Below are positions 26,746-40,228 of a stretch of DNA of 64,000 nt, one piece after another. The stretch's first letter is position 1, and each line of letters begins with the position of its first letter. The stretch comes from Trypanosoma brucei. Lineage: Eukaryota. Location: contig CM000208.1 of the NCBI GenBank assembly GCA_000002445.1, forward strand, positions 2,272,001 to 2,336,000, read 5' to 3'. The translations under genes were made by a program, and so were the position numbers. The notes under the pieces were generated by a model that did not search any database, was not told where the DNA came from, and saw only the letters and a list, made by a program, of their open reading frames with translations.

Positions 26746-27096
26746 CGTTGCCATGCTAGGCAGGTACCAACCTTGTTCTCCCTGTGGTGATGCACATTTA
26801 TAATGGACTTTTTTTTTTAGTTGTTGTTGTTACATTGTCGGTACATGCGGAAGAAGGATTGTTAGTGAATTTCTTTGTGTGTTTATTTCTCACAGGCTGT
26901 TGCGGCAAAAGTATTAAATTCCTTCTATTGTGTGAACCTACAGGACAAAGGAGGAACAGGGATGGTTTGCTTTTAAAACGATGCCACCATTTTTCTTCTA
27001 TGTTGTGCACATATGCGTTGTTGAATAAAATGAAGTAAAGAGCCCGGCCGAGTGGAGTGGCGCGGTGTGGGAATACATAAAAATAATAATAAGAAC

Positions 27097-27849
27097 ATGA
27101 GCACCTTCGCGGTACTAAATGGTGTCATAATATTAGCGGTATTCGTTGTAACCGCTGCTTGCTTAGATGATCAAAAGCCTATAAGGGAGGGAGGGAAAGC
27201 GCTGAGTGGAGAGGCTGCAAAACATCTCTGCCGCATCAAACAGATAAGTGAATTGCTCGGAAGCCGTGCAGAGTTTGAGCTAATTAGGGACGGATCCAAG
27301 TTTACCAGCGAGCGACAAGTCCTTCGTAATGTCCAGGATAAAATAACGGAAGGGGTCAAAGGCATAAATGAGTTGTTCGGTAGGCACTGTCGGCGAGTGT
27401 CCTTGGGAATTGAAGGAGGTGGGAGCGACATGCTTTCCAACCCAAATTGCGAAGATAGCGATAAAAAAGAGGGAACGGGGGAAGCCACTGACCAAGGCAG
27501 TGGGACGCTGTCTGAAGAGGGTATTATCCAGTGCGAACACGGTAATTTTCTGCGTGATTTCCTAATTCGGGGTGCCCTCGAGGCATACAGAAGTCAAATG
27601 GAGCAGTGGGAAAAGAAAAAACCGACAGAAGGAAACAAAACGAGTACGGAGGTTAAAGGGGATGAATCGTCAAAAAAACACGAGGACCAATGCCAGCAGA
27701 TGGGATACAGCGTTCATGGGGCCTGCACCGTATCAGAGCAAAAATGGAGGCAACATCTGGAAGAGGCTGTGAAGCTCATGGAAGGCATAATTGTAGTGAA
27801 AAAGGAAGACGTTTGTGGGGTATCAAAAGAAGGGGAGACGCAAAAATAA
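27097..27849 (+). CDS. hypothetical secreted protein (about 250 aa, cleavable signal peptide, 8 Cys, highly charged)
   Basis: MSTFAVLNGVIILAVFVVTAACLDDQ looks like a signal peptide. A poly-Y tract (about 26976-26998) followed by AG lies upstream. It is the only sizeable ATG ORF in an 8.7-kb gene-poor stretch. No family assigned. Confidence 0.4.
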   Translation: MSTFAVLNGVIILAVFVVTAACLDDQKPIREGGKALSGEAAKHLCRIKQISELLGSRAEFELIRDGSKFTSERQVLRNVQDKITEGVKGINELFGRHCRRVSLGIEGGGSDMLSNPNCEDSDKKEGTGEATDQGSGTLSEEGIIQCEHGNFLRDFLIRGALEAYRSQMEQWEKKKPTEGNKTSTEVKGDESSKKHEDQCQQMGYSVHGACTVSEQKWRQHLEEAVKLMEGIIVVKKEDVCGVSKEGETQK

Positions 27850-31110: not shown

Positions 31111-31440
31111 ATGAAGCGAAAAATTATGAGCCTTGACTACGAAACTCGGTATTTTCATTATCCTTATGGAAAGGTGATCAAAAGGGGTGCCATACTACAT
31201 TTTGCGGGGTCGAGTAACGTGTGGAAGGAGACAATACCCAGGTACCTCAGCGAGATGAGTTGGTTCAAAGCTCTAAAAAATTCTTTCACAGAACGAGAGG
31301 CTTACAGGCGGCTGCTAGAAACAACTTCCGTTGAAATACACTCTGCAAGGGGTGCCTTTAGGTATGTAAAGCTCGGTACTGTGTGCCCCATCTCTAACGT
31401 TTCAAACCCAAATTGGTTATCTGGGGAGTTGAGAAAGTAA
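31111..31440 (+). pseudogene. truncated leading copy of the glycosyltransferase-like array gene; only the last about 105 codons are present
   Basis: From about 31127 to 31440 the sequence is identical to the 3' end of the full copies (KIMSLDYETRYFHYPYGKVIKRG...NPNWLSGELRK*). The identical downstream spacer follows. The sequence upstream of 31127 is unique, so this is the array boundary. Confidence 0.65.
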
Positions 31441-31536
31441 TGCATACGGTCAATCTGCATTGAAGATTACACCCGTAATCCGCGGCACATCGCATCGCAC
31501 TCTCTTATCCCTTACATACTCATTGCAGAAACTGAC

Positions 31537-31555
31537 GTTTTATTTTTGTTTTCAG
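31537..31555 (+). promoter_or_regulatory. poly-pyrimidine tract plus AG, a putative trans-splice acceptor 3 nt upstream of the array-gene ATG; repeated identically at 32828-32846 and 34119-34137
   Basis: gttttatttttgttttcag directly precedes gaaATG in copies 1-3. Copy 4 has gttttatttcatttttag before aaagATG. Confidence 0.5.
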
Positions 31556-31558
31556 GAA

Positions 31559-32731
31559 ATGTTGAGGAGGATCAAGGGTATTTCAACTCGTAAAAAGGGA
31601 GGGAGATTATATTTAATAGTGATTGCGCTGCTGATAGTGGTCGGGGTTATGGCGACAATGGATATAAGAAGTAGTCATACGGAAACCGGTCACGGGTTGA
31701 GAAAAGAAAATTTCCACAGTAGTTATGCACCAAGGATTAGTTATGTTGTGGTGCAAAACAGACCCTCCCCAGGGTGGTGTAGAATGCTCTTAAGCTCTAT
31801 ACTCACCAATGTGTCGGTGCTTACGTTGGGTGTGGAGGGTAAGTACGGGCATGTAAGAAGATGGACCTGGATATATAATTATGTATGGCGGGGAGAAGCG
31901 CGTGAGAGCGATGTGATTGTGATATTCGATGGGGGAGACACTTTTTTCACAGAAACACATTTAAGAGAAGATGCCATGAAGTATTTTCTGGCAACAACGC
32001 CTAGCACGCCTGAAAAGTTCAATGAAACAGAAATCATACAGGGAGCTATGACACCTCCAATGCTCTTCACGGCAGAGGTGTATTGCGCTATGCCACAGAT
32101 TGATATAATGGTAAAGCATCCAAGGAATACACCGCCTGGGAAGTGCAGGAGGTTCTACGAGCGAGCATTTGAGGCGTCCACCCGAACAGGGACAAGGGCG
32201 ATTCTGAGGGCAAATGAATCTGGAAGGTCGTATCTCAATGGCGGAGGAGTAATTGCAAGAGTATGGGCTCTGAGAGAGGCTCTGGAGGCATTCTTCCGCT
32301 TAAAAAAGCAAAGTTTTTTTTGGGGCTGTGATCAAACTATGTGGGCATTTGTGTTTTTGTGGAGTGTAACTAGACCAAGTAACGTGAAACCGAAGTTGTT
32401 TCTGAGAAGGGGAATTATGAGCCTTGACTACGAAACTCGGTATTTTCATTATCCTTATGGAAAGGTGATCAAAAGGGGTGCCATACTACATTTTGCGGGG
32501 TCGAGTAACGTGTGGAAGGAGACAATACCCAGGTACCTCAGCGAGATGAGTTGGTTCAAAGCTCTAAAAAATTCTTTCACAGAACGAGAGGCTTACAGGC
32601 GGCTGCTAGAAACAACTTCCGTTGAAATACACTCTGCAAGGGGTGCCTTTAGGTATGTAAAGCTCGGTACTGTGTGCCCCATCTCTAACGTTTCAAACCC
32701 AAATTGGTTATCTGGGGAGTTGAGAAAGTAA
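31559..32731 (+). CDS. type-II membrane protein with a PLOD/LH3-N-terminal-like GT-A glycosyltransferase domain (array copy 1, 390 aa)
   Basis: Short basic cytosolic tail (MLRRIKGISTRKKGGR) and a TM segment (LYLIVIALLIVVGVMATM) precede a luminal domain. Several blocks align with the lysyl-hydroxylase N-terminal GT domain: YVVVQNRP...LTLG (VITVAT...RTLG), DVIVIFDGGDTFF (MIIMFVDSYDVI), MLFTAEVYC (LLFSAESFC), YLNGGGVIARV (FLNSGGFIGFA), CDQTMWAFVFL (DDQLFYTRLYL). ORF-track start is TTG at 31460; the first ATG is at 31559. Confidence 0.8.
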   Translation: MLRRIKGISTRKKGGRLYLIVIALLIVVGVMATMDIRSSHTETGHGLRKENFHSSYAPRISYVVVQNRPSPGWCRMLLSSILTNVSVLTLGVEGKYGHVRRWTWIYNYVWRGEARESDVIVIFDGGDTFFTETHLREDAMKYFLATTPSTPEKFNETEIIQGAMTPPMLFTAEVYCAMPQIDIMVKHPRNTPPGKCRRFYERAFEASTRTGTRAILRANESGRSYLNGGGVIARVWALREALEAFFRLKKQSFFWGCDQTMWAFVFLWSVTRPSNVKPKLFLRRGIMSLDYETRYFHYPYGKVIKRGAILHFAGSSNVWKETIPRYLSEMSWFKALKNSFTEREAYRRLLETTSVEIHSARGAFRYVKLGTVCPISNVSNPNWLSGELRK

Positions 32732-32849: not shown

Positions 32850-34022
32850 ATGTTGAGGAGGATCAAGGGTATTTCAACTCGTAAAAAGGGAGGGAGATTA
32901 TATTTAATAGTGATTGCGCTGCTGATAGTGGTCGGGGTTATGGCGACAATGGATATAAGAAGTAGTCATACGGAAACCGGTCACGGGTTGAGAAAAGAAA
33001 ATTTCCACAGTAGTTATGCACCAAGGATTAGTTATGTTGTGGTGCAAAACAGACCCTCCCCAGGGTGGTGTAGAATGCTCTTAAGCTCTATACTCACCAA
33101 TGTGTCGGTGGTTACGTTGGGTATGGGAGGATGGTATGGTAACGTAAGAAGATGGACCTGGATATATAATTATGTATGGCGGGGAGAAGCGCGTGAGAGC
33201 GATGTGATTGTGATATTCGATGGGGGAGACACTTTTTTCACAGAAACACATTTAAGAGAAGATGCCATGAAGTATTTTCTGGCAACAACGCCTAGCACGC
33301 CTGAAAAGTTCAATGAAACAGAAATCATACAGGGAGCTATGACACCTCCAATGCTCTTCACGGCAGAGGTGTATTGCGCTATGCCAGATATTGATATAAT
33401 GGTAAAGCATCCAAGGAATACACCGCCTGGGAAGTGCAGGAGGTTCTACGAGCGAGCATTTGAGGCGTCCACCCGAACAGGGACAAGGGCGATTCTGAGG
33501 ATGAATGAATCCGGCAGGTCGTATCTCAATGGCGGAGGAGTAATTGCAAGAGTGTGGGCTCTGAGAGAGGCTCTGGAGGCATTCTTCCGCTTAAAAAAGC
33601 AGTGGTTTATATGGCGTTGTGATCAAACTATGTGGGCATTTGTGTTTTTGTGGAGTGTAACTAGACCAAGTAACGTGAAACCGAAGTTGTTTCTGAGAAG
33701 GGGAATTATGAGCCTTGACTACGAAACTCGGTATTTTCATTATCCTTATGGAAAGGTGATCAAAAGGGGTGCCATACTACATTTTGCGGGGTCGAGTAAC
33801 GTGTGGAAGGAGACAATACCCAGGTACCTCAGCGAGATGAGTTGGTTCAAAGCTCTAAAAAATTCTTTCACAGAACGAGAGGCTTACAGGCGGCTGCTAG
33901 AAACAACTTCCGTTGAAATACACTCTGCAAGGGGTGCCTTTAGGTATGTAAAGCTCGGTACTGTGTGCCCCATCTCTAACGTTTCAAACCCAAATTGGTT
34001 ATCTGGGGAGTTGAGAAAGTAA
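32850..34022 (+). CDS. glycosyltransferase-like array copy 2 (390 aa), about 97% identical to copy 1 at the protein level
   Basis: Same architecture as copy 1. Differences from copy 1 are confined to short patches (LTLGVEGKYGH vs VTLGMGGWYGN, PQIDIM vs PDIDIM, RANESG vs RMNESG, KKQSFFWGCDQ vs KKQWFIWRCDQ). Confidence 0.8.
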   Translation: MLRRIKGISTRKKGGRLYLIVIALLIVVGVMATMDIRSSHTETGHGLRKENFHSSYAPRISYVVVQNRPSPGWCRMLLSSILTNVSVVTLGMGGWYGNVRRWTWIYNYVWRGEARESDVIVIFDGGDTFFTETHLREDAMKYFLATTPSTPEKFNETEIIQGAMTPPMLFTAEVYCAMPDIDIMVKHPRNTPPGKCRRFYERAFEASTRTGTRAILRMNESGRSYLNGGGVIARVWALREALEAFFRLKKQWFIWRCDQTMWAFVFLWSVTRPSNVKPKLFLRRGIMSLDYETRYFHYPYGKVIKRGAILHFAGSSNVWKETIPRYLSEMSWFKALKNSFTEREAYRRLLETTSVEIHSARGAFRYVKLGTVCPISNVSNPNWLSGELRK

Positions 34023-34140: not shown

Positions 34141-35319
34141 ATGGCGAAGGGAGGGAAAAGGGTAGTTGCTCGTAAAAAGGGAGGGAGATTATATTTAATA
34201 GTGATTGCGCTGCTGATAGTGGTCGGGGTTATGGCGACAATGGATATAAGAAGTAGCCATACGGAAACCGGTCACGGGTTGAGAAAAGAAAATTTCCACA
34301 GTAATTATGCACCAAGGGTTAGTTATGTTGTGGTGCAAACGAGACGCTCCCCAGGGTGGTGTAGAATGCTCTTAAGCTCTATACTCACCAACGTAAGCGT
34401 CACAACAGTTGGAATGGGCGCAGTGTACATTCATGCGTGGAGATGGACCTGGATATATAATTATATGCTACGGGAGAGGATGCATGAAGACGATGTGATT
34501 GTGATATTCGATGGGGGAGACACTTTTTTCACAGAAACACATTTAAGAGAAGATGCCATGAAGTATTTTCTGGCAACAACGCCTAGCACGCCTGAAAAGT
34601 TCAATGAAACAGAAATCTTACAGGGAGCTATGACACCTCCAATGCTCTTCACGGCAGAAAAAGGCTGCTACGCGCCGCAAATGTATATCATGACGGGTGT
34701 CGATCCCAGTAAAATACCTCAACGGGAAAGATGTTTAAATGTGTATGAAGAGGCATTTGAGGCGTCTACTCTGGCAGGGACGCAGGCTATTTTGCGGAAG
34801 CACGAATCTGGAAGGTGGCATCTCAATGGCGGAGGAGTAATTGCAAGAGTGTGGGCTCTGAGAGAGGCCCTAGATGTTTTCTTCGCGCTCAAAAGGCAGA
34901 GTTACAAATGGTGGTGTGATCAAAGTATGTGGTCATTGATTTTAGCGTGGAGTGTCAGCAGACCAAAGCACGTGAAACCGGTGTTGCTTCTGAGAAGGGG
35001 AATTATGAGCCTTGACTACGAAACTCGGTATTTTCATTATCCTCATACAACGCCGATTAGGACAGGAGTGATCCTACATTTTCCAATGCCGATCGTTTTG
35101 TGGAAAAACAAAATGGCAAAATACGTTGGTGAGACGACATGGTTTAGGGCTTTGCGAGATTCCGAAGGAAGACAGAAGACAGTGGCAGATTACTTAAAGA
35201 CCGTTTATGTGGATATTCGCTTCGTCTTTGGGTTCAAAAAGTGGAGGAAGTTTAGCAGCGTGTGCAGCATAAGCGATGTTGTGAACCCAAACTGGCTAAG
35301 TGGTGTGTTGAGAAAGTAA
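34141..35319 (+). CDS. glycosyltransferase-like array copy 3 (392 aa), a mosaic with an identical 5' end and a diverged middle and 3' end
   Basis: The spacer and the 5'UTR-proximal sequence are identical to copies 1 and 2 (ATG at 34141). The catalytic core is conserved (VIVIFDGGDTFF, LFTAE, LNGGGVIARVWALREAL, WWCDQSMW) and the C-terminal 80 aa are diverged. Confidence 0.75.
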   Translation: MAKGGKRVVARKKGGRLYLIVIALLIVVGVMATMDIRSSHTETGHGLRKENFHSNYAPRVSYVVVQTRRSPGWCRMLLSSILTNVSVTTVGMGAVYIHAWRWTWIYNYMLRERMHEDDVIVIFDGGDTFFTETHLREDAMKYFLATTPSTPEKFNETEILQGAMTPPMLFTAEKGCYAPQMYIMTGVDPSKIPQRERCLNVYEEAFEASTLAGTQAILRKHESGRWHLNGGGVIARVWALREALDVFFALKRQSYKWWCDQSMWSLILAWSVSRPKHVKPVLLLRRGIMSLDYETRYFHYPHTTPIRTGVILHFPMPIVLWKNKMAKYVGETTWFRALRDSEGRQKTVADYLKTVYVDIRFVFGFKKWRKFSSVCSISDVVNPNWLSGVLRK

Positions 35320-35443
35320 CACCAGCGCTTGACCTGTACCATAATATCATGCCCCCTATACGCTGCGTGTCGGCACGCCATTCACCAGGATGTATGAATA
35401 CACTGTGTGTGGAAATCCGTGTTTTATTTCATTTTTAGAAAAG

Positions 35444-36625
35444 ATGAAAGGAACTAAGAAATTTTATGGTAAAAGAAGGAAGAGAACGTGTGTAATAGGT
35501 GCGGCACTTCTGCTTATCTTTTTACTTTGTCGCATGCTGTTTATCCGGACGGAAGAAGTGGAAGACACCACGTTTGAGGAGGGTTGTTGGGAGCGTGAGA
35601 TGCGCAGCGAAGGAGTGGGAGATGTAAAGGTGCGTTACGTCGTGATACAGACGAAGCCCTCCCCAGGTTGGTGTAGAATGCTTGTAAGCTCTCTCGTTGT
35701 TGGTATTGATGTAATTACAATAGGACTCGATGGCGTGTACCATCACACCTCGAGGCCACATTGGTTGCTGAACTACATAGAAAGTGCGGGGTTAAGTGAT
35801 GACGATGTGATTGTGACATTTGATGGTGCGGACACAGTATTTGTGAACAAGCATAACCTCCAGTGCGCTATTAGCAAGTTCATATCAACGACACCGAGCA
35901 AACCAGAAAATTTCGATGAGGAAAAAATACTGAAAGGCGTCCAAAAGTCTCCACTCCTGTTTACTGCTGAAAGGGGGTGTTTTGCCTCTCAACTAAGCGT
36001 TTTGTTTTCAATAAGAGGCAGAAAACACGAAAAGAGGTGTGAGCGGTTCTATAGGGGGGAGATTTCAAAGGCCAAAGCAACCGGCGCGGAACGGGTGATG
36101 CGGATGCCAAAGAGTGGGCGGGCGTATCTTAATGCTGGTGGGGTGATCGGGAGGGTGTGGGCATTTAAGGAAGCAATAGGAGGATTTTCAAAACTTAGAG
36201 AAAAGAGTGACAGATGGTGGTGTGATCAGACAATTTGGACCATTCTCTTTGCCTGGAGCGTCAATCAACAGGACACTGGGGGTAAAGCAGTGCACTTGAG
36301 AAAGGGTCTGATTTCTCTAGACTACGATGCGAGGTATTTTCTCATTCCTTCGTACACTTCCCCAATTCGAAGCATGATATTGCATTTTTCCGGGCTTATT
36401 AGAGACTGGAAGTGGTGGTTTCCAGGTGTTGTGAGGAGGTTGGTATGGATACAGAGAATGAGAGATGATGTGTATCAGAGAGACAGTAGGAGTTTGCTAA
36501 CTAAGACCAGCTTAACGATCTACGGCGCTAAAGGAGAAAAATATATTCGTAAGTTTGCCGATGTTTGCAACGTTGATGAGGCCGTGGACTACACGTGGCT
36601 GTCGACGGTCCGAAGTAAGCATTAG
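35444..36625 (+). CDS. glycosyltransferase-like array copy 4 (about 393 aa), the most diverged paralogue
   Basis: The start is chosen by analogy with the other copies: the ATG right after poly-Y/AG gives MKGTKKFYGKRRKRT plus a TM segment (CVIGAALLLIFLLC). The ORF track begins at an upstream ATG at 35390. Family blocks are conserved: YVVIQTKPSPGWCRMLVSS, VIVTFDGADTVF, LLFTAERGC, YLNAGGVIGRVWAF, WWCDQTIW. Confidence 0.7.
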   Translation: MKGTKKFYGKRRKRTCVIGAALLLIFLLCRMLFIRTEEVEDTTFEEGCWEREMRSEGVGDVKVRYVVIQTKPSPGWCRMLVSSLVVGIDVITIGLDGVYHHTSRPHWLLNYIESAGLSDDDVIVTFDGADTVFVNKHNLQCAISKFISTTPSKPENFDEEKILKGVQKSPLLFTAERGCFASQLSVLFSIRGRKHEKRCERFYRGEISKAKATGAERVMRMPKSGRAYLNAGGVIGRVWAFKEAIGGFSKLREKSDRWWCDQTIWTILFAWSVNQQDTGGKAVHLRKGLISLDYDARYFLIPSYTSPIRSMILHFSGLIRDWKWWFPGVVRRLVWIQRMRDDVYQRDSRSLLTKTSLTIYGAKGEKYIRKFADVCNVDEAVDYTWLSTVRSKH

Positions 36626-39625: not shown

Positions 39626-40228
39626 ATGAGAACGAATAGTCTCAACATCGGAGCAGTTTTGGGGGTGATGTTGGTAGTGGTTGACATTGAAGCACAGGGA
39701 ACAGGTGCCGTGTCCGCGTCGCATTGCACTTTCAACCAGCGCTCCGGTGTTTCTAAGAAGGAAGAGCTAGGGGACGCTATGAAGGTAGATAATGTCTTTC
39801 CAGGAGGCCCTAAAAAAGACGTTTTGGTGTCGTGTGCCAATAAGAGTCGTCAGACAGCGGCAGGGATTTTCGTTCACTGGTGCTGCAGGTGTGAATCAGA
39901 AACCAGTGGCGACAGGGGCAATGTTTGCGAATTTTTTGGAGATTGTGAATGTGATGATATCTATTCAACCTCAAACGTCCCTAAATGCGTTAAAGGAGAC
40001 CACATGTGGAGGGACTCTTCTACTGCGCTGCGGGCGGTTCTTCAGGATGTCAAGGGGAGAGACGCTTGTAACATCTCAACACCTAATGGAAAAGAGATAT
40101 TGATGAAGCTTACGAGAGAAGAGCTCACATCTAATATAGCACCTCAGGATTCGTCCTCCAAAATATTCTTGTTTCTGCTGGCTGCGCTGCTCATGCAGGA
40201 CGAATCTGTGGCACAAACCTCCAATTAG
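39626..40228 (+). CDS. small Cys-rich putative surface protein (200 aa) with an N-terminal signal peptide and a C-terminal hydrophobic segment (GPI-signal-like or short TM anchor)
   Basis: MRTNSLNIGAVLGVMLVVVDIEAQG looks like a signal peptide. There are about 12 Cys, including CCRCESETSGDRGNVCEFFGDCECDD. The C-terminus is ...SSSKIFLFLLAALLMQDESVAQTSN. A poly-Y tract followed by AG lies upstream, at about 39560-39615. Confidence 0.4.
   Translation: MRTNSLNIGAVLGVMLVVVDIEAQGTGAVSASHCTFNQRSGVSKKEELGDAMKVDNVFPGGPKKDVLVSCANKSRQTAAGIFVHWCCRCESETSGDRGNVCEFFGDCECDDIYSTSNVPKCVKGDHMWRDSSTALRAVLQDVKGRDACNISTPNGKEILMKLTREELTSNIAPQDSSSKIFLFLLAALLMQDESVAQTSN

What the first reader, a model, noticed from the sequence alone, without database searches (positions are those of the whole stretch)
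31780..32330. Differences between the two near-identical copies are packed into about four short patches that are also hypervariable in copies 3 and 4
Copy 1 and copy 2 are base-for-base identical over most of their 1291-bp units. Their differences cluster as follows: about 10 nt changes within about 40 bp at 31812-31852 vs 33103-33143 (LTLGVEGKYGH vs VTLGMGGWYGN), one codon Q to D (PQIDIM vs PDIDIM), GCA to ATG (A to M in RANESG vs RMNESG), and a patch giving KKQSFFWGCDQ vs KKQWFIWRCDQ. The same four positions read TTVGMGAVYIHAW / PQMYIM / RKHESGRWH / KRQSYKWWCDQ in copy 3 and ITIGLDGVYHHTSRPHW / ... / REKSDRWWCDQ in copy 4. This is the pattern expected for specificity loops under diversifying selection (acceptor or donor specificity), or for patchwork gene conversion from diverged donors, against a background homogenised by concerted evolution.
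Basis: seen in the sequence. Interest (0 to 1): 0.7.

Follow-up and report, generated by a model that had tools for sequence, protein, structure and literature searches.

The report
Patchy differences between twin trypanosome glycosyltransferases
Two neighbouring, almost identical ESAG3-like sugar-transferase genes of Trypanosoma brucei differ only in four short patches; these are old, recombination-shuffled pieces of sequence that encode loops around the enzyme's substrate pocket, so the two enzymes probably share a scaffold but handle different substrates.

Summary
The window is T. brucei brucei TREU927 chromosome 10. It holds four tandem ESAG3-like (GRESAG3, Fam53) genes, published as array Tb105a (Jackson 2007). 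Copies 1 and 2 differ at 26 of 1291 bases. All 26 lie within 507 bp, and 25 fall in four patches (clustering P<1e-5).

Diversifying selection on point mutations is not supported:
- Inside the patches, synonymous sites are as diverged as between ancient paralogues (pS 0.75, pN 0.27, ratio about 0.35).
- Six of seven synonymous differences lie within four codons of a replacement (P about 1e-5).
- Eight of ten replaced codons need at least two base changes.
- The rest of the unit, spacers included, has one difference.

Copy 3 shows the same block-and-island pattern.

The structural guess holds. The AlphaFold2 model (pLDDT 90.7) matches the LH3 GT domain. Patches A, B and D align to the LH3 glycoloop, Trp145/Trp148 gate and poly-Asp segment. 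They include the equivalents of ESAG3 H84 and W242. "Hypervariable" is only partly right, because several sites are conserved family-wide.

Different substrate specificity is inferred, not shown. No donor sequence was found.

The parts
31111..31440 (+). Partial unit 0: the last 109 codons of an ESAG3-like gene, identical to the 3' ends of copies 1 and 2. The array starts here.
   Evidence: tblastn; repeat family D1 at 100%. It is identical to the 109-aa 'ESAG3, fragment' of T. b. gambiense DAL972, P0010.
31441..31558 (+). 118-nt intergenic spacer with a pyrimidine tract and AG. It is 100% identical in spacers 0>1, 1>2 and 2>3; spacer 3>4 is diverged.
31559..32731 (+). Copy 1 CDS (390 aa, EAN78342). 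A type II membrane, GT-A, ESAG3-like glycosyltransferase.
32850..34022 (+). Copy 2 CDS (390 aa, EAN78343, equal to P0001).
34141..35319 (+). Copy 3 CDS (392 aa, EAN78344). A mosaic: blocks 100% identical to copies 1 and 2 alternate with diverged islands.
   Evidence: PMC1855330
35390..36625 (+). Copy 4 CDS (411 aa, EAN78345). The divergent array member (36% identity) with its own spacer.
31820..31852 (+). Patch A in copy 1 (copy 2: 33111-33143). 11 nt differences: L88V, V92M, E93G, K95W, H98N, plus 3 synonymous codons. It covers the end of strand 87-92 and loop 93-100. It aligns to ESAG3 74-84 (Y82, H84) and to the LH3 glycoloop G72-G87.
32096..32098 (+). Patch B in copy 1 (copy 2: 33387-33389). 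CAG to GAT, Q180D. It aligns to ESAG3 Q166 (3 residues after cavity residue Y163) and to LH3 W148 in the W145/W148 gate loop.
32210..32224 (+). Patch C in copy 1 (copy 2: 33501-33515). GCA to ATG (A218M) plus synonymous changes in S221 and G222. It lies in loop 211-224, just before the strand that carries N227 and G229-G230. Its structural role is unresolved.
32263..32263 (+). Lone synonymous difference (V235, GTA vs GTG; copy 2: 33554). Copies 3 and 4 read GTG, as copy 2 does.
32311..32326 (+). Patch D in copy 1 (copy 2: 33602-33617). 7 nt differences: Q251 synonymous, S252W, F254I, G256R. It lies in loop 250-257. Residue 256 aligns to ESAG3 W242 (W242A is inactive). The patch aligns to the LH3 poly-Asp segment.
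   Evidence: bioRxiv 10.64898/2026.01.27.701950
31928..31939 (+). D124-G-G-D127 metal-binding DxxD motif of copy 1. It is identical in all four copies.
32330..32335 (+). D258-Q259 of copy 1, equivalent to ESAG3 E244/Q245 and LH3 D191/Q192. It lies immediately 3' of patch D and is conserved.
32489..32491 (+). H311 of copy 1, equivalent to ESAG3 H297 and LH3 H253 (C-terminal metal-binding His). Conserved.

Best explanation
The finding lies in the first two genes of a four-gene tandem array of ESAG3-like (GRESAG3, Fam53) glycosyltransferases on T. brucei TREU927 chromosome 10.

Gene conversion and/or unequal crossing-over keeps the repeat units identical across the GT-A core, the transmembrane stem, the C-terminal subdomain and the spacers. 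Four short tracts (3 to 33 bp) carry divergence as old as that between distant paralogues. They were either left unconverted or imported as micro-tracts from diverged family members.

These tracts encode loops around the sugar-donor/acceptor cavity: the shortened 'glycoloop', the gate loop and the loop preceding the catalytic Asp-Gln pair. The result is two enzymes with one scaffold and an intact catalytic centre, but ten different residues, at least seven of them in cavity-lining loops.

Shown: the mosaic structure, the age signal in the patches, and the mapping to loops and cavity elements by homology.

Inferred: that selection keeps the two cavity versions apart because they give different acceptor (or donor-sugar) preferences.
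For: Identity of the locus: copies 1 to 4 are EAN78342-45 of TREU927 on the 4,054,025-bp chromosome.

Mosaic structure:
- 26 differences in 1291 bp, clustered at P<1e-5.
- Patches: pS 0.75 and pN 0.27. Rest of the CDS: 1 synonymous and 0 replacement differences in 367 codons.
- Six of 7 synonymous differences lie within 4 codons of a replacement (P=9e-6). Eight of 10 replaced codons need at least 2 base changes.
- The spacers are 100% identical.
- Copy 3 shows the same architecture: blocks at about 100% nt identity (codons 11-83, 118-172, 220-240 and 282-299, with 0-5 differing codons each) alternate with islands. All four patches fall in those islands.
- The copy 3 islands are closer to P0005/P0092 than to copy 1. 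This matches the published ectopic conversion from Tb10.70.2860 at 519-628 bp (PMC1855330).
- Copy 3 differs from its gambiense orthologue by a four-residue patch (KKGG vs RRRV). At 6 of the 7 differences between them, the brucei copy 3 carries the copy 1/2 state.

Structure:
- AlphaFold2 model of copy 1: pLDDT 90.7.
- The top ten PDB matches are all LH3 (E down to 4.7e-10).
- hhalign against the LH3 GT domain: probability 98.5%.
- Replaced positions correspond to ESAG3 residues 74, 78, 79, 81, 84, 166, 204, 238, 240 and 242.
- Three of 4 patches lie within 3 residues of the cavity aromatics Y82, H84, Y163 and W242 named in the cryo-EM paper (P 0.005-0.015).
- The catalytic residues D124xxD127, H311, G229-G230 and D258-Q259 are intact.
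- Charged replacements come in opposite-charge pairs (E93+K95 in copy 1, D180+R256 in copy 2), so the net charge is unchanged.
Against: - No donor sequence was found for any patch allele. None is in the array or the window, and none appears among annotated intact family proteins.
- N98 and D180 of copy 2 are unique among 75 homologues. That is odd for import from a functional paralogue.
- Patch B is a single codon. This is very short for a conversion tract, and equally for a retained island.
- Both copies lack the Trp equivalent to ESAG3 W242, whose W242A mutant is inactive. One or both could be poor enzymes.
- No coordinates were available, so closeness to the pocket rests on alignment to published residues, not on measured distances.
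- Patch C has no known structural role.
- T. b. gambiense DAL972 has no copy 1 or 2. Their age therefore cannot be checked.
Confidence: 0.6

Rival explanations
1. Neutral mosaic. The patches are by-products of recombination with no functional meaning. Conversion works only where sequences are already similar (the conserved core). Diverged loop segments are skipped, or heteroduplex across them is rejected, so islands of divergence persist by themselves.
For: - The homogenised blocks coincide with the conserved GT-A core.
- The same core block (about codons 133-170) is also identical between the chromosome 11 pair P0003 and P0004, and is where the gambiense chimera P0006 crosses over.
- pN/pS in the patches (0.35) is like ordinary paralogue divergence.
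Against: - The island boundaries are extremely tight (3 to 33 bp) within otherwise perfect identity.
- Replaced positions include family-invariant cavity residues (H98, Q180, G93) rather than tolerant sites.
- Three of 4 patches coincide with named cavity residues (P about 0.01).
- The charged changes are pairwise compensated.
Confidence: 0.2
2. Interface tuning. In ESAG3 the active-site clefts of two protomers face each other, and Y82, H84, Y163 and W242 line the cavity between protomers. On this reading the patches change which partners can pair (homo- versus hetero-oligomers), not substrate choice.
For: - The cryo-EM description of the head-to-head dimer cavity.
- Patches A, B and D map onto those residues.
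- The ESAG3 interface residues H54 and W345 are R/K and R/K/Y in copies 1 to 4, so assembly already differs from ESAG3.
Against: - The same loops are the donor-sugar and acceptor elements in monomeric LH3 GT domains.
- There are no data on GRESAG3 oligomers.
Confidence: 0.1
3. Artefact. Copies 1 and 2 are two alleles, or an arbitrary number of repeat units laid in tandem by the assembler, so the 'two genes' are not both present on one chromosome.
For: - The gambiense assembly has only partial unit 0 followed by copies 3 and 4.
- The gambiense genome paper states that repeat copy number in assemblies can be arbitrary and is hard to tell from allelic variation (PMC2854126).
Against: - Both sequences are in-frame with no indels.
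- The differences are multi-base codon replacements, not sequencing errors.
- Even if they were allelic, the patch pattern between two real sequences would stand.
Confidence: 0.07
4. Classical diversifying selection. Recent point mutations in specificity loops were fixed by positive selection after the copies had been homogenised.
For: - The replacements concentrate in cavity loops.
- Patch B is a single codon with two changes.
Against: - pN/pS is about 0.35 in the patches.
- Synonymous changes cluster with the replacements (P about 1e-5), and 8 of 10 codons are multi-hit, while the background has 1 change in about 1,100 bp of CDS.
- There is no base-specific mutation pattern, as a targeted mutator would leave.
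Confidence: 0.03

Closest known systems
Expression-site ESAG3 of T. brucei (Mn2+-dependent UDP-glucose:VSG O-glucosyltransferase; bioRxiv 10.64898/2026.01.27.701950)
   Same: - Same protein family: the profile built from the window copies hits canonical ESAG3 (P0018) at E=1.2e-83.
- GT-A fold resembling LH3.
- The DxxD motif, C-terminal His, Gly-Gly loop and acidic-Gln pair are conserved.
   Different: - Only about 28-30% identity.
- Located in the chromosome core, not in an expression site.
- An N-terminal transmembrane anchor instead of a signal peptide.
- The equivalent of gating W242 is G in copy 1 and R in copy 2. Y163 is A in both, and H84 is N in copy 2.
- Interface residues H54 and W345 are not conserved.
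- Activity and substrates are unknown.
Human LH3/PLOD3 glycosyltransferase domain and its 'hot spots' (PMC10342707)
   Same: - Best structural match, with a profile-profile probability of 98.5%.
- Patches A, B and D align to the glycoloop, the W145/W148 gate loop and the poly-Asp segment. These are the elements shown by mutagenesis to control LH3 Glc-T activity.
   Different: - 16% identity.
- The glycoloop equivalent is 9 residues shorter.
- There is a large insertion after the gate loop and an extra C-terminal subdomain.
- No lysyl hydroxylase domains.
- Pfam GT_PLOD does not hit copies 1 to 4 directly.
[quoted passage not shown]
   Same: This is the same locus (Tb10.6k15.0910). The paper reports concerted evolution of copies 1 to 3, a segregated copy 4 with its own UTRs, and ectopic gene conversion into copy 3 from Tb10.70.2860 at 519-628 bp.
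   Different: In the passages searched, the paper does not discuss the four copy 1/copy 2 patches or any structural meaning. The family's fold and function were unknown in 2007.
Human ABO blood-group transferases GTA and GTB (own knowledge)
   Same: Two GT-A enzymes that are nearly identical, where a handful of pocket residues decide substrate specificity.
   Different: These are alleles of one gene that differ by point substitutions. Their donor-sugar switch is proven, whereas here specificity is only inferred.

Membership tests
ESAG3 / GRESAG3 (Fam53) protein family | Significant sequence similarity to ESAG3 proteins | tested here: met
   All hits to copy 1 are T. brucei 'ESAG / ESAG3-like' proteins. 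The profile hits canonical ESAG3 (P0018) at E=1.2e-83. P0018 clusters with the Lister 427 expression-site ESAG3s.
ESAG3 / GRESAG3 (Fam53) protein family | Catalytic set: DxxD, C-terminal His, Gly-Gly loop, acidic-Gln pair | tested here: met
   D124/D127, H311, G229/G230 and D258/Q259 are present in all four copies.
ESAG3 sensu stricto (expression-site O-glucosyltransferase) | Gating Trp242, cavity residues Tyr163 and His84, and interface residues His54 and Trp345 | tested here: not met
   The W242 equivalent is G in copy 1 and R in copy 2. Y163 is A in both. H84 is N in copy 2. H54 is R and W345 is R.
ESAG3 sensu stricto (expression-site O-glucosyltransferase) | Location in a telomeric VSG expression site | tested here: not met
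   The array is flanked by core housekeeping genes on the same strand (NDH2, PRPP synthetase, BCS1, kinase and others).
ESAG3 sensu stricto (expression-site O-glucosyltransferase) | UDP-glucose-specific O-glucosylation of VSG Ser; octadecameric ring | not testable with these tools
   This needs biochemistry and structural work.
GT-A fold, LH3/PLOD-type glycosyltransferase domain | Fold similarity to the LH3 GT domain | tested here: met
   Model pLDDT 90.7. Foldseek ranks 1-10 are all LH3 (E down to 4.7e-10; TM 0.66 on 6wfv), followed by mimivirus R699.
GT-A fold, LH3/PLOD-type glycosyltransferase domain | Sequence-profile relationship to the PLOD GT domain | tested here: met
   hmmsearch of the family profile against the PDB gives LH3 at E=8.6e-8. 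hhalign gives 98.5% probability, E=3.5e-15. A distant family member hits Pfam GT_PLOD at 5e-9. Copies 1 to 4 alone give no Pfam hit.
GT-A fold, LH3/PLOD-type glycosyltransferase domain | Glycoloop with a uridine-stacking aromatic (LH3 Trp75) | tested here: inconclusive
   The loop is 9 residues shorter. hhalign pairs invariant Y96 with W75, but HMMER places the gap differently.
Concerted evolution with gene-conversion mosaics | Non-coding spacers and synonymous sites identical between copies, with sharply bounded diverged tracts | tested here: met
Concerted evolution with gene-conversion mosaics | An identifiable donor for the diverged tracts | tested here: not met
   No match to either patch A allele in the window or in metagenomes. 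Copies 3 and 4 are not donors. For copy 3 a donor is published and is consistent.
Sites under diversifying (positive) selection | dN/dS above 1 at the variable sites | tested here: not met
   pN/pS is about 0.35 in the patches, with pS saturated. A site-model test with many sequences was not possible.
Targeted hypermutation (for example DGR-like, adenine-specific) | Base-specific substitution pattern | tested here: not met
   All classes of substitution occur among the 26 differences.

The most novel reading that the evidence does not exclude
The GRESAG3 family may use short segmental gene conversion to shuffle cavity-loop 'cassettes' on a constant GT-A scaffold. This would generate glycosyltransferases with new acceptor or donor-sugar specificities. 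Glycan diversity on the trypanosome surface, for example extension of the O-glucose that ESAG3 puts on VSG, would then be diversified by the same kind of mosaic recombination that diversifies VSGs.
Probability: 0.1. Interest if true: 0.8.

Novelty: new member of a known kind. Interest (0 to 1): 0.45.

Why it matters
A 2026 preprint identified ESAG3 as the VSG O-glucosyltransferase. It asks which of about 50 intact GRESAG3 genes extend the sugar, and whether family members differ in specificity. Copies 1 and 2 form a natural minimal pair for that question. They share the same scaffold and differ at only ten residues, at least seven of which sit in loops that control substrate handling in LH3 and line the ESAG3 cavity. 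Expressing both and swapping patches would be a compact way to find specificity determinants in this family. The locus is also a clean example of concerted evolution that stops short at functional loops.

Tried and rejected
- Exact-protein look-ups for copy 1, copy 2 and P0001 found no contigs, so no DNA from other strains or loci could be fetched.
- A metagenome scan with a pattern spanning patch A found nothing.
- The second word-indexed homologue search, with a 42-sequence alignment, returned only eight proteins, seven of them already found in the first search.
- The first AlphaFold2 run, with 10 sequences, was unusable (pLDDT 49). The 75-sequence alignment fixed this.
- Pfam gives no hit for copies 1 to 4.
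- A PDB sequence search with copy 1 alone found nothing, and the ESAG3 cryo-EM entry is not in the copy.
- The idea that the patches are family-wide hypervariable sites was tested and rejected.
- A base-specific mutator was rejected.
- An rRNA or other Rfam element near the array was not found.
Full report
**What the locus is.**
The four ORFs at 31559-32731, 32850-34022, 34141-35319 and 35390-36625 are exact matches to EAN78342 to EAN78345 of Trypanosoma brucei brucei TREU927. They sit on the 4,054,025-bp chromosome and are named 'expression site-associated gene (ESAG) / ESAG3-like protein'. A partial unit lies upstream at 31111-31440. It holds the last 109 codons and is identical to the 3' ends of copies 1 and 2.

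The array is in the chromosome core, among housekeeping genes on the same strand. Jackson (2007, PMC1855330) described it as tandem array Tb105a (Tb10.6k15.0910). In that account copies 1 to 3 evolve in concert and copy 4 is segregated by its own UTRs. Copy 3 was hit by ectopic gene conversion from Tb10.70.2860 at 519-628 bp, one of only two such cases the study found in the genome.

**Checking the observation.**
Units 1 and 2 (period 1291 bp) differ at 26 positions, all between 31820 and 32326. Eleven lie in 31820-31852, two at 32096/32098, five in 32210-32224, one at 32263 and seven in 32311-32326.

By codon the differences are (numbering +1):
- Patch A: L88V, V92M, E93G, K95W and H98N, with synonymous changes in G94, Y96 and G97.
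- Patch B: Q180D.
- Patch C: A218M, with synonymous changes in S221 and G222.
- A lone synonymous change in V235.
- Patch D: synonymous Q251, then S252W, F254I and G256R.

Random placement never reproduced the clustering in 100,000 trials. The 118-nt spacers 0>1, 1>2 and 2>3 are identical.

**How old the patches are.**
- In the 23 patch codons, pS is 0.75 and pN is 0.27. In the other 367 codons there is one synonymous difference and no replacement.
- These patch values match ordinary divergence between the old paralogues: copy 1 vs copy 4 gives pS 0.83 and pN 0.42.
- Six of the seven synonymous differences lie within four codons of a replacement (P=9e-6). Eight of ten replaced codons need two or three base changes, which never happened in 200,000 simulations of independent substitutions.
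- The substitutions show no base preference.

So the patches are not recent point mutations fixed by positive selection. They are short tracts of old sequence set in a freshly homogenised background. That is the signature of gene conversion, whether the tracts were imported or simply never converted.

**The same process elsewhere in the array and family.**
- Copy 3 against copy 1 alternates between blocks at or near 100% nucleotide identity and strongly diverged islands. The blocks are codons 11-83, 101-108, 118-172, 220-240 and 282-299, each with 0-5 differing codons. The islands are codons 84-100, 109-117, 173-219, 241-281 and 300-390. All four copy 1/copy 2 patches fall in these islands.
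- In the islands, copy 3 is closer to P0005/P0092, a chromosome 10 paralogue, than to copy 1: 13/17 vs 8/17 residues, and 26/47 vs 21/47. This agrees with Jackson's donor.
- Copy 3 differs from its T. b. gambiense orthologue at seven residues. Four are consecutive (KKGG vs RRRV), and at six of the seven the brucei gene carries the copy 1/2 state. Copy 4 differs from its orthologue at only two scattered residues.
- On chromosome 11, the adjacent pair P0003/P0004 shares an identical core block. The gambiense protein P0006 is a chimera that crosses over in that block, which matches the 'ESAG, 1 vs 2 copies' entry in PMC2854126.

**No donor found.**
Neither patch A allele occurs elsewhere in the window or in metagenomes. 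Copies 3 and 4 are not donors at the nucleotide level. At protein level, copy 2 patch A resembles P0003/P0004 (GMGGWYGH), and copy 1 patches C and D resemble P0004 (RANESG, WGCDQ). But N98, D180 and R256 of copy 2 are unique among 75 homologues, and E93 of copy 1 is rare. Both copies therefore carry derived states. Import and retention cannot be separated without the rest of the genome.

**What the protein is.**
- Pfam finds nothing.
- A full HMMER search gave 81 relatives. With 75 of them, AlphaFold2 gave a confident model (pLDDT 90.7, pTM 0.84).
- The ten best PDB matches are all human LH3, followed by mimivirus R699.
- The family profile finds LH3 by sequence (E=8.6e-8), and hhalign gives 98.5% probability.
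- A 2026 preprint shows that expression-site ESAG3 is a Mn2+-dependent, UDP-glucose-specific O-glucosyltransferase of VSG3. It has an LH3-like GT-A fold and forms an 18-mer ring.
- P0018 is that ESAG3. Its numbering reproduces H54, Y82, H84, D110 and D113.

**Where the patches sit.**
In the model, the patches lie in loops 93-100, 174-194, 211-224 and 250-257; only L88 and V92 are in a strand.

Aligned to ESAG3, the replaced residues correspond to positions 74, 78, 79, 81, 84, 166, 204, 238, 240 and 242. The preprint names Y82, H84, Y163 and W242 as lining the cavity between head-to-head protomers, and reports W242A as inactive. Two replacements hit H84 and W242 exactly, and three of four patches lie within three residues of these four aromatics (P=0.005-0.015).

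Aligned to LH3:
- Patch A corresponds to the glycoloop G72-G87.
- A177 and Q180 correspond to the gating residues W145 and W148.
- Patch D corresponds to Y185-D189 of the poly-Asp segment.

PMC10342707 shows that the glycoloop covers the donor, that the poly-Asp segment contacts the glycoloop and the glucose, and that the W145/W148 loop shapes the acceptor entrance. Patch C has no assigned role.

It was checked against every residue number cited in that paper and against the fragments printed. No coordinates were available, so these are homology mappings and not measured distances.

**Not simply hypervariable.**
The ten positions are no more variable than average across the family (P=0.65), and H98, Q180 and G93 are conserved. 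Thirteen expression-site ESAG3 variants are not enriched for variation there, and ESAG3 156-182 is invariant.

The pattern is one of positions conserved within a paralogue or orthologue group but different between groups. That is what specificity-determining positions look like. It is also what decay of one copy would look like. All catalytic residues are intact in both copies, and the charged replacements come in compensating pairs. Both points argue mildly against decay.

**Verdict.**
The mechanism that made the pattern is mosaic concerted evolution, which is known for this array. Positive selection on point mutations is rejected. The structural guess, an LH3-like pocket lined by these loops, is supported by homology to two mutagenised and structurally characterised enzymes. 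That the two cavity versions confer different substrate preference is a reasonable but untested inference. Interface tuning, neutral persistence and assembly or allelic artefact remain as lesser rivals.

Noticed in passing
window 31111-31440; protein P0010: T. b. gambiense DAL972 annotates a 109-aa 'ESAG3, fragment' identical to partial unit 0. It is followed directly by the orthologues of copies 3 and 4. Copies 1 and 2 are therefore absent or collapsed in that assembly. The identical 3' ends of units 0, 1 and 2 would allow deletion by unequal crossing-over.
   Followed up: partly
window 34174-34185 (copy 3 residues 12-15): Copy 3 differs from its gambiense orthologue by four consecutive residues (KKGG vs RRRV). 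At 6 of the 7 differences between them, the brucei gene has the copy 1/2 state. This is a second, recent, short conversion-like patch in the same array.
   Followed up: yes
proteins P0003, P0004 (TREU927 chr 11, adjacent genes) and P0006 (DAL972): P0006 is a chimera: P0004 up to about residue 168, then P0003 onward. The crossover lies in a 35-residue block identical between the two. The same core region is homogenised between copies 1/2 and copy 3 in the window.
   Followed up: yes
window copies 1-4, residues equivalent to ESAG3 H54 and W345 (copy 1 R68, R365): The two residues whose stacking holds the ESAG3 head-to-head dimer are not conserved in any of the four array genes (R/K and R/K/Y). 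These proteins may not form the ESAG3-type 18-mer.
   Followed up: partly
window copies 1 and 2, residues 95 and 256: In the subclade of copies 1 and 2, P0003 and P0004, the Trp equivalent to ESAG3 W242 is lost (G, R, L, G). Members other than copy 1 instead have Trp at position 95 in the facing loop. Copy 1 has Trp at neither position. This may be a compensatory relocation of an aromatic residue.
   Followed up: no
window 27052-27849 (+): An ORF of 265 aa matches only the C-terminal part of the Pfam ISG65-75 invariant surface glycoprotein family (E=1e-10). It is probably a truncated or degenerate ISG-like gene upstream of the array.
   Followed up: no
window 40200-48400: About 8 kb with higher GC (0.49-0.54) and reversed GC skew. 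It has no ORF of 200 aa or more on either strand, no Pfam hit for the ten longest open stretches, no Rfam family and no tandem repeats. Its nature is unexplained.
   Followed up: partly
window 39626-40228 (+): A 200-aa Cys-rich ORF with a hydrophobic N-terminus and C-terminus and no Pfam match. It could be a small surface-protein gene.
   Followed up: no
window 35320-35389 and 35390-35443: The spacer before copy 4 is shorter (70 nt) and unrelated to the other spacers after the first 11 bases. The annotated copy 4 start adds 18 residues upstream of the Met that aligns with the starts of copies 1 to 3.
   Followed up: no
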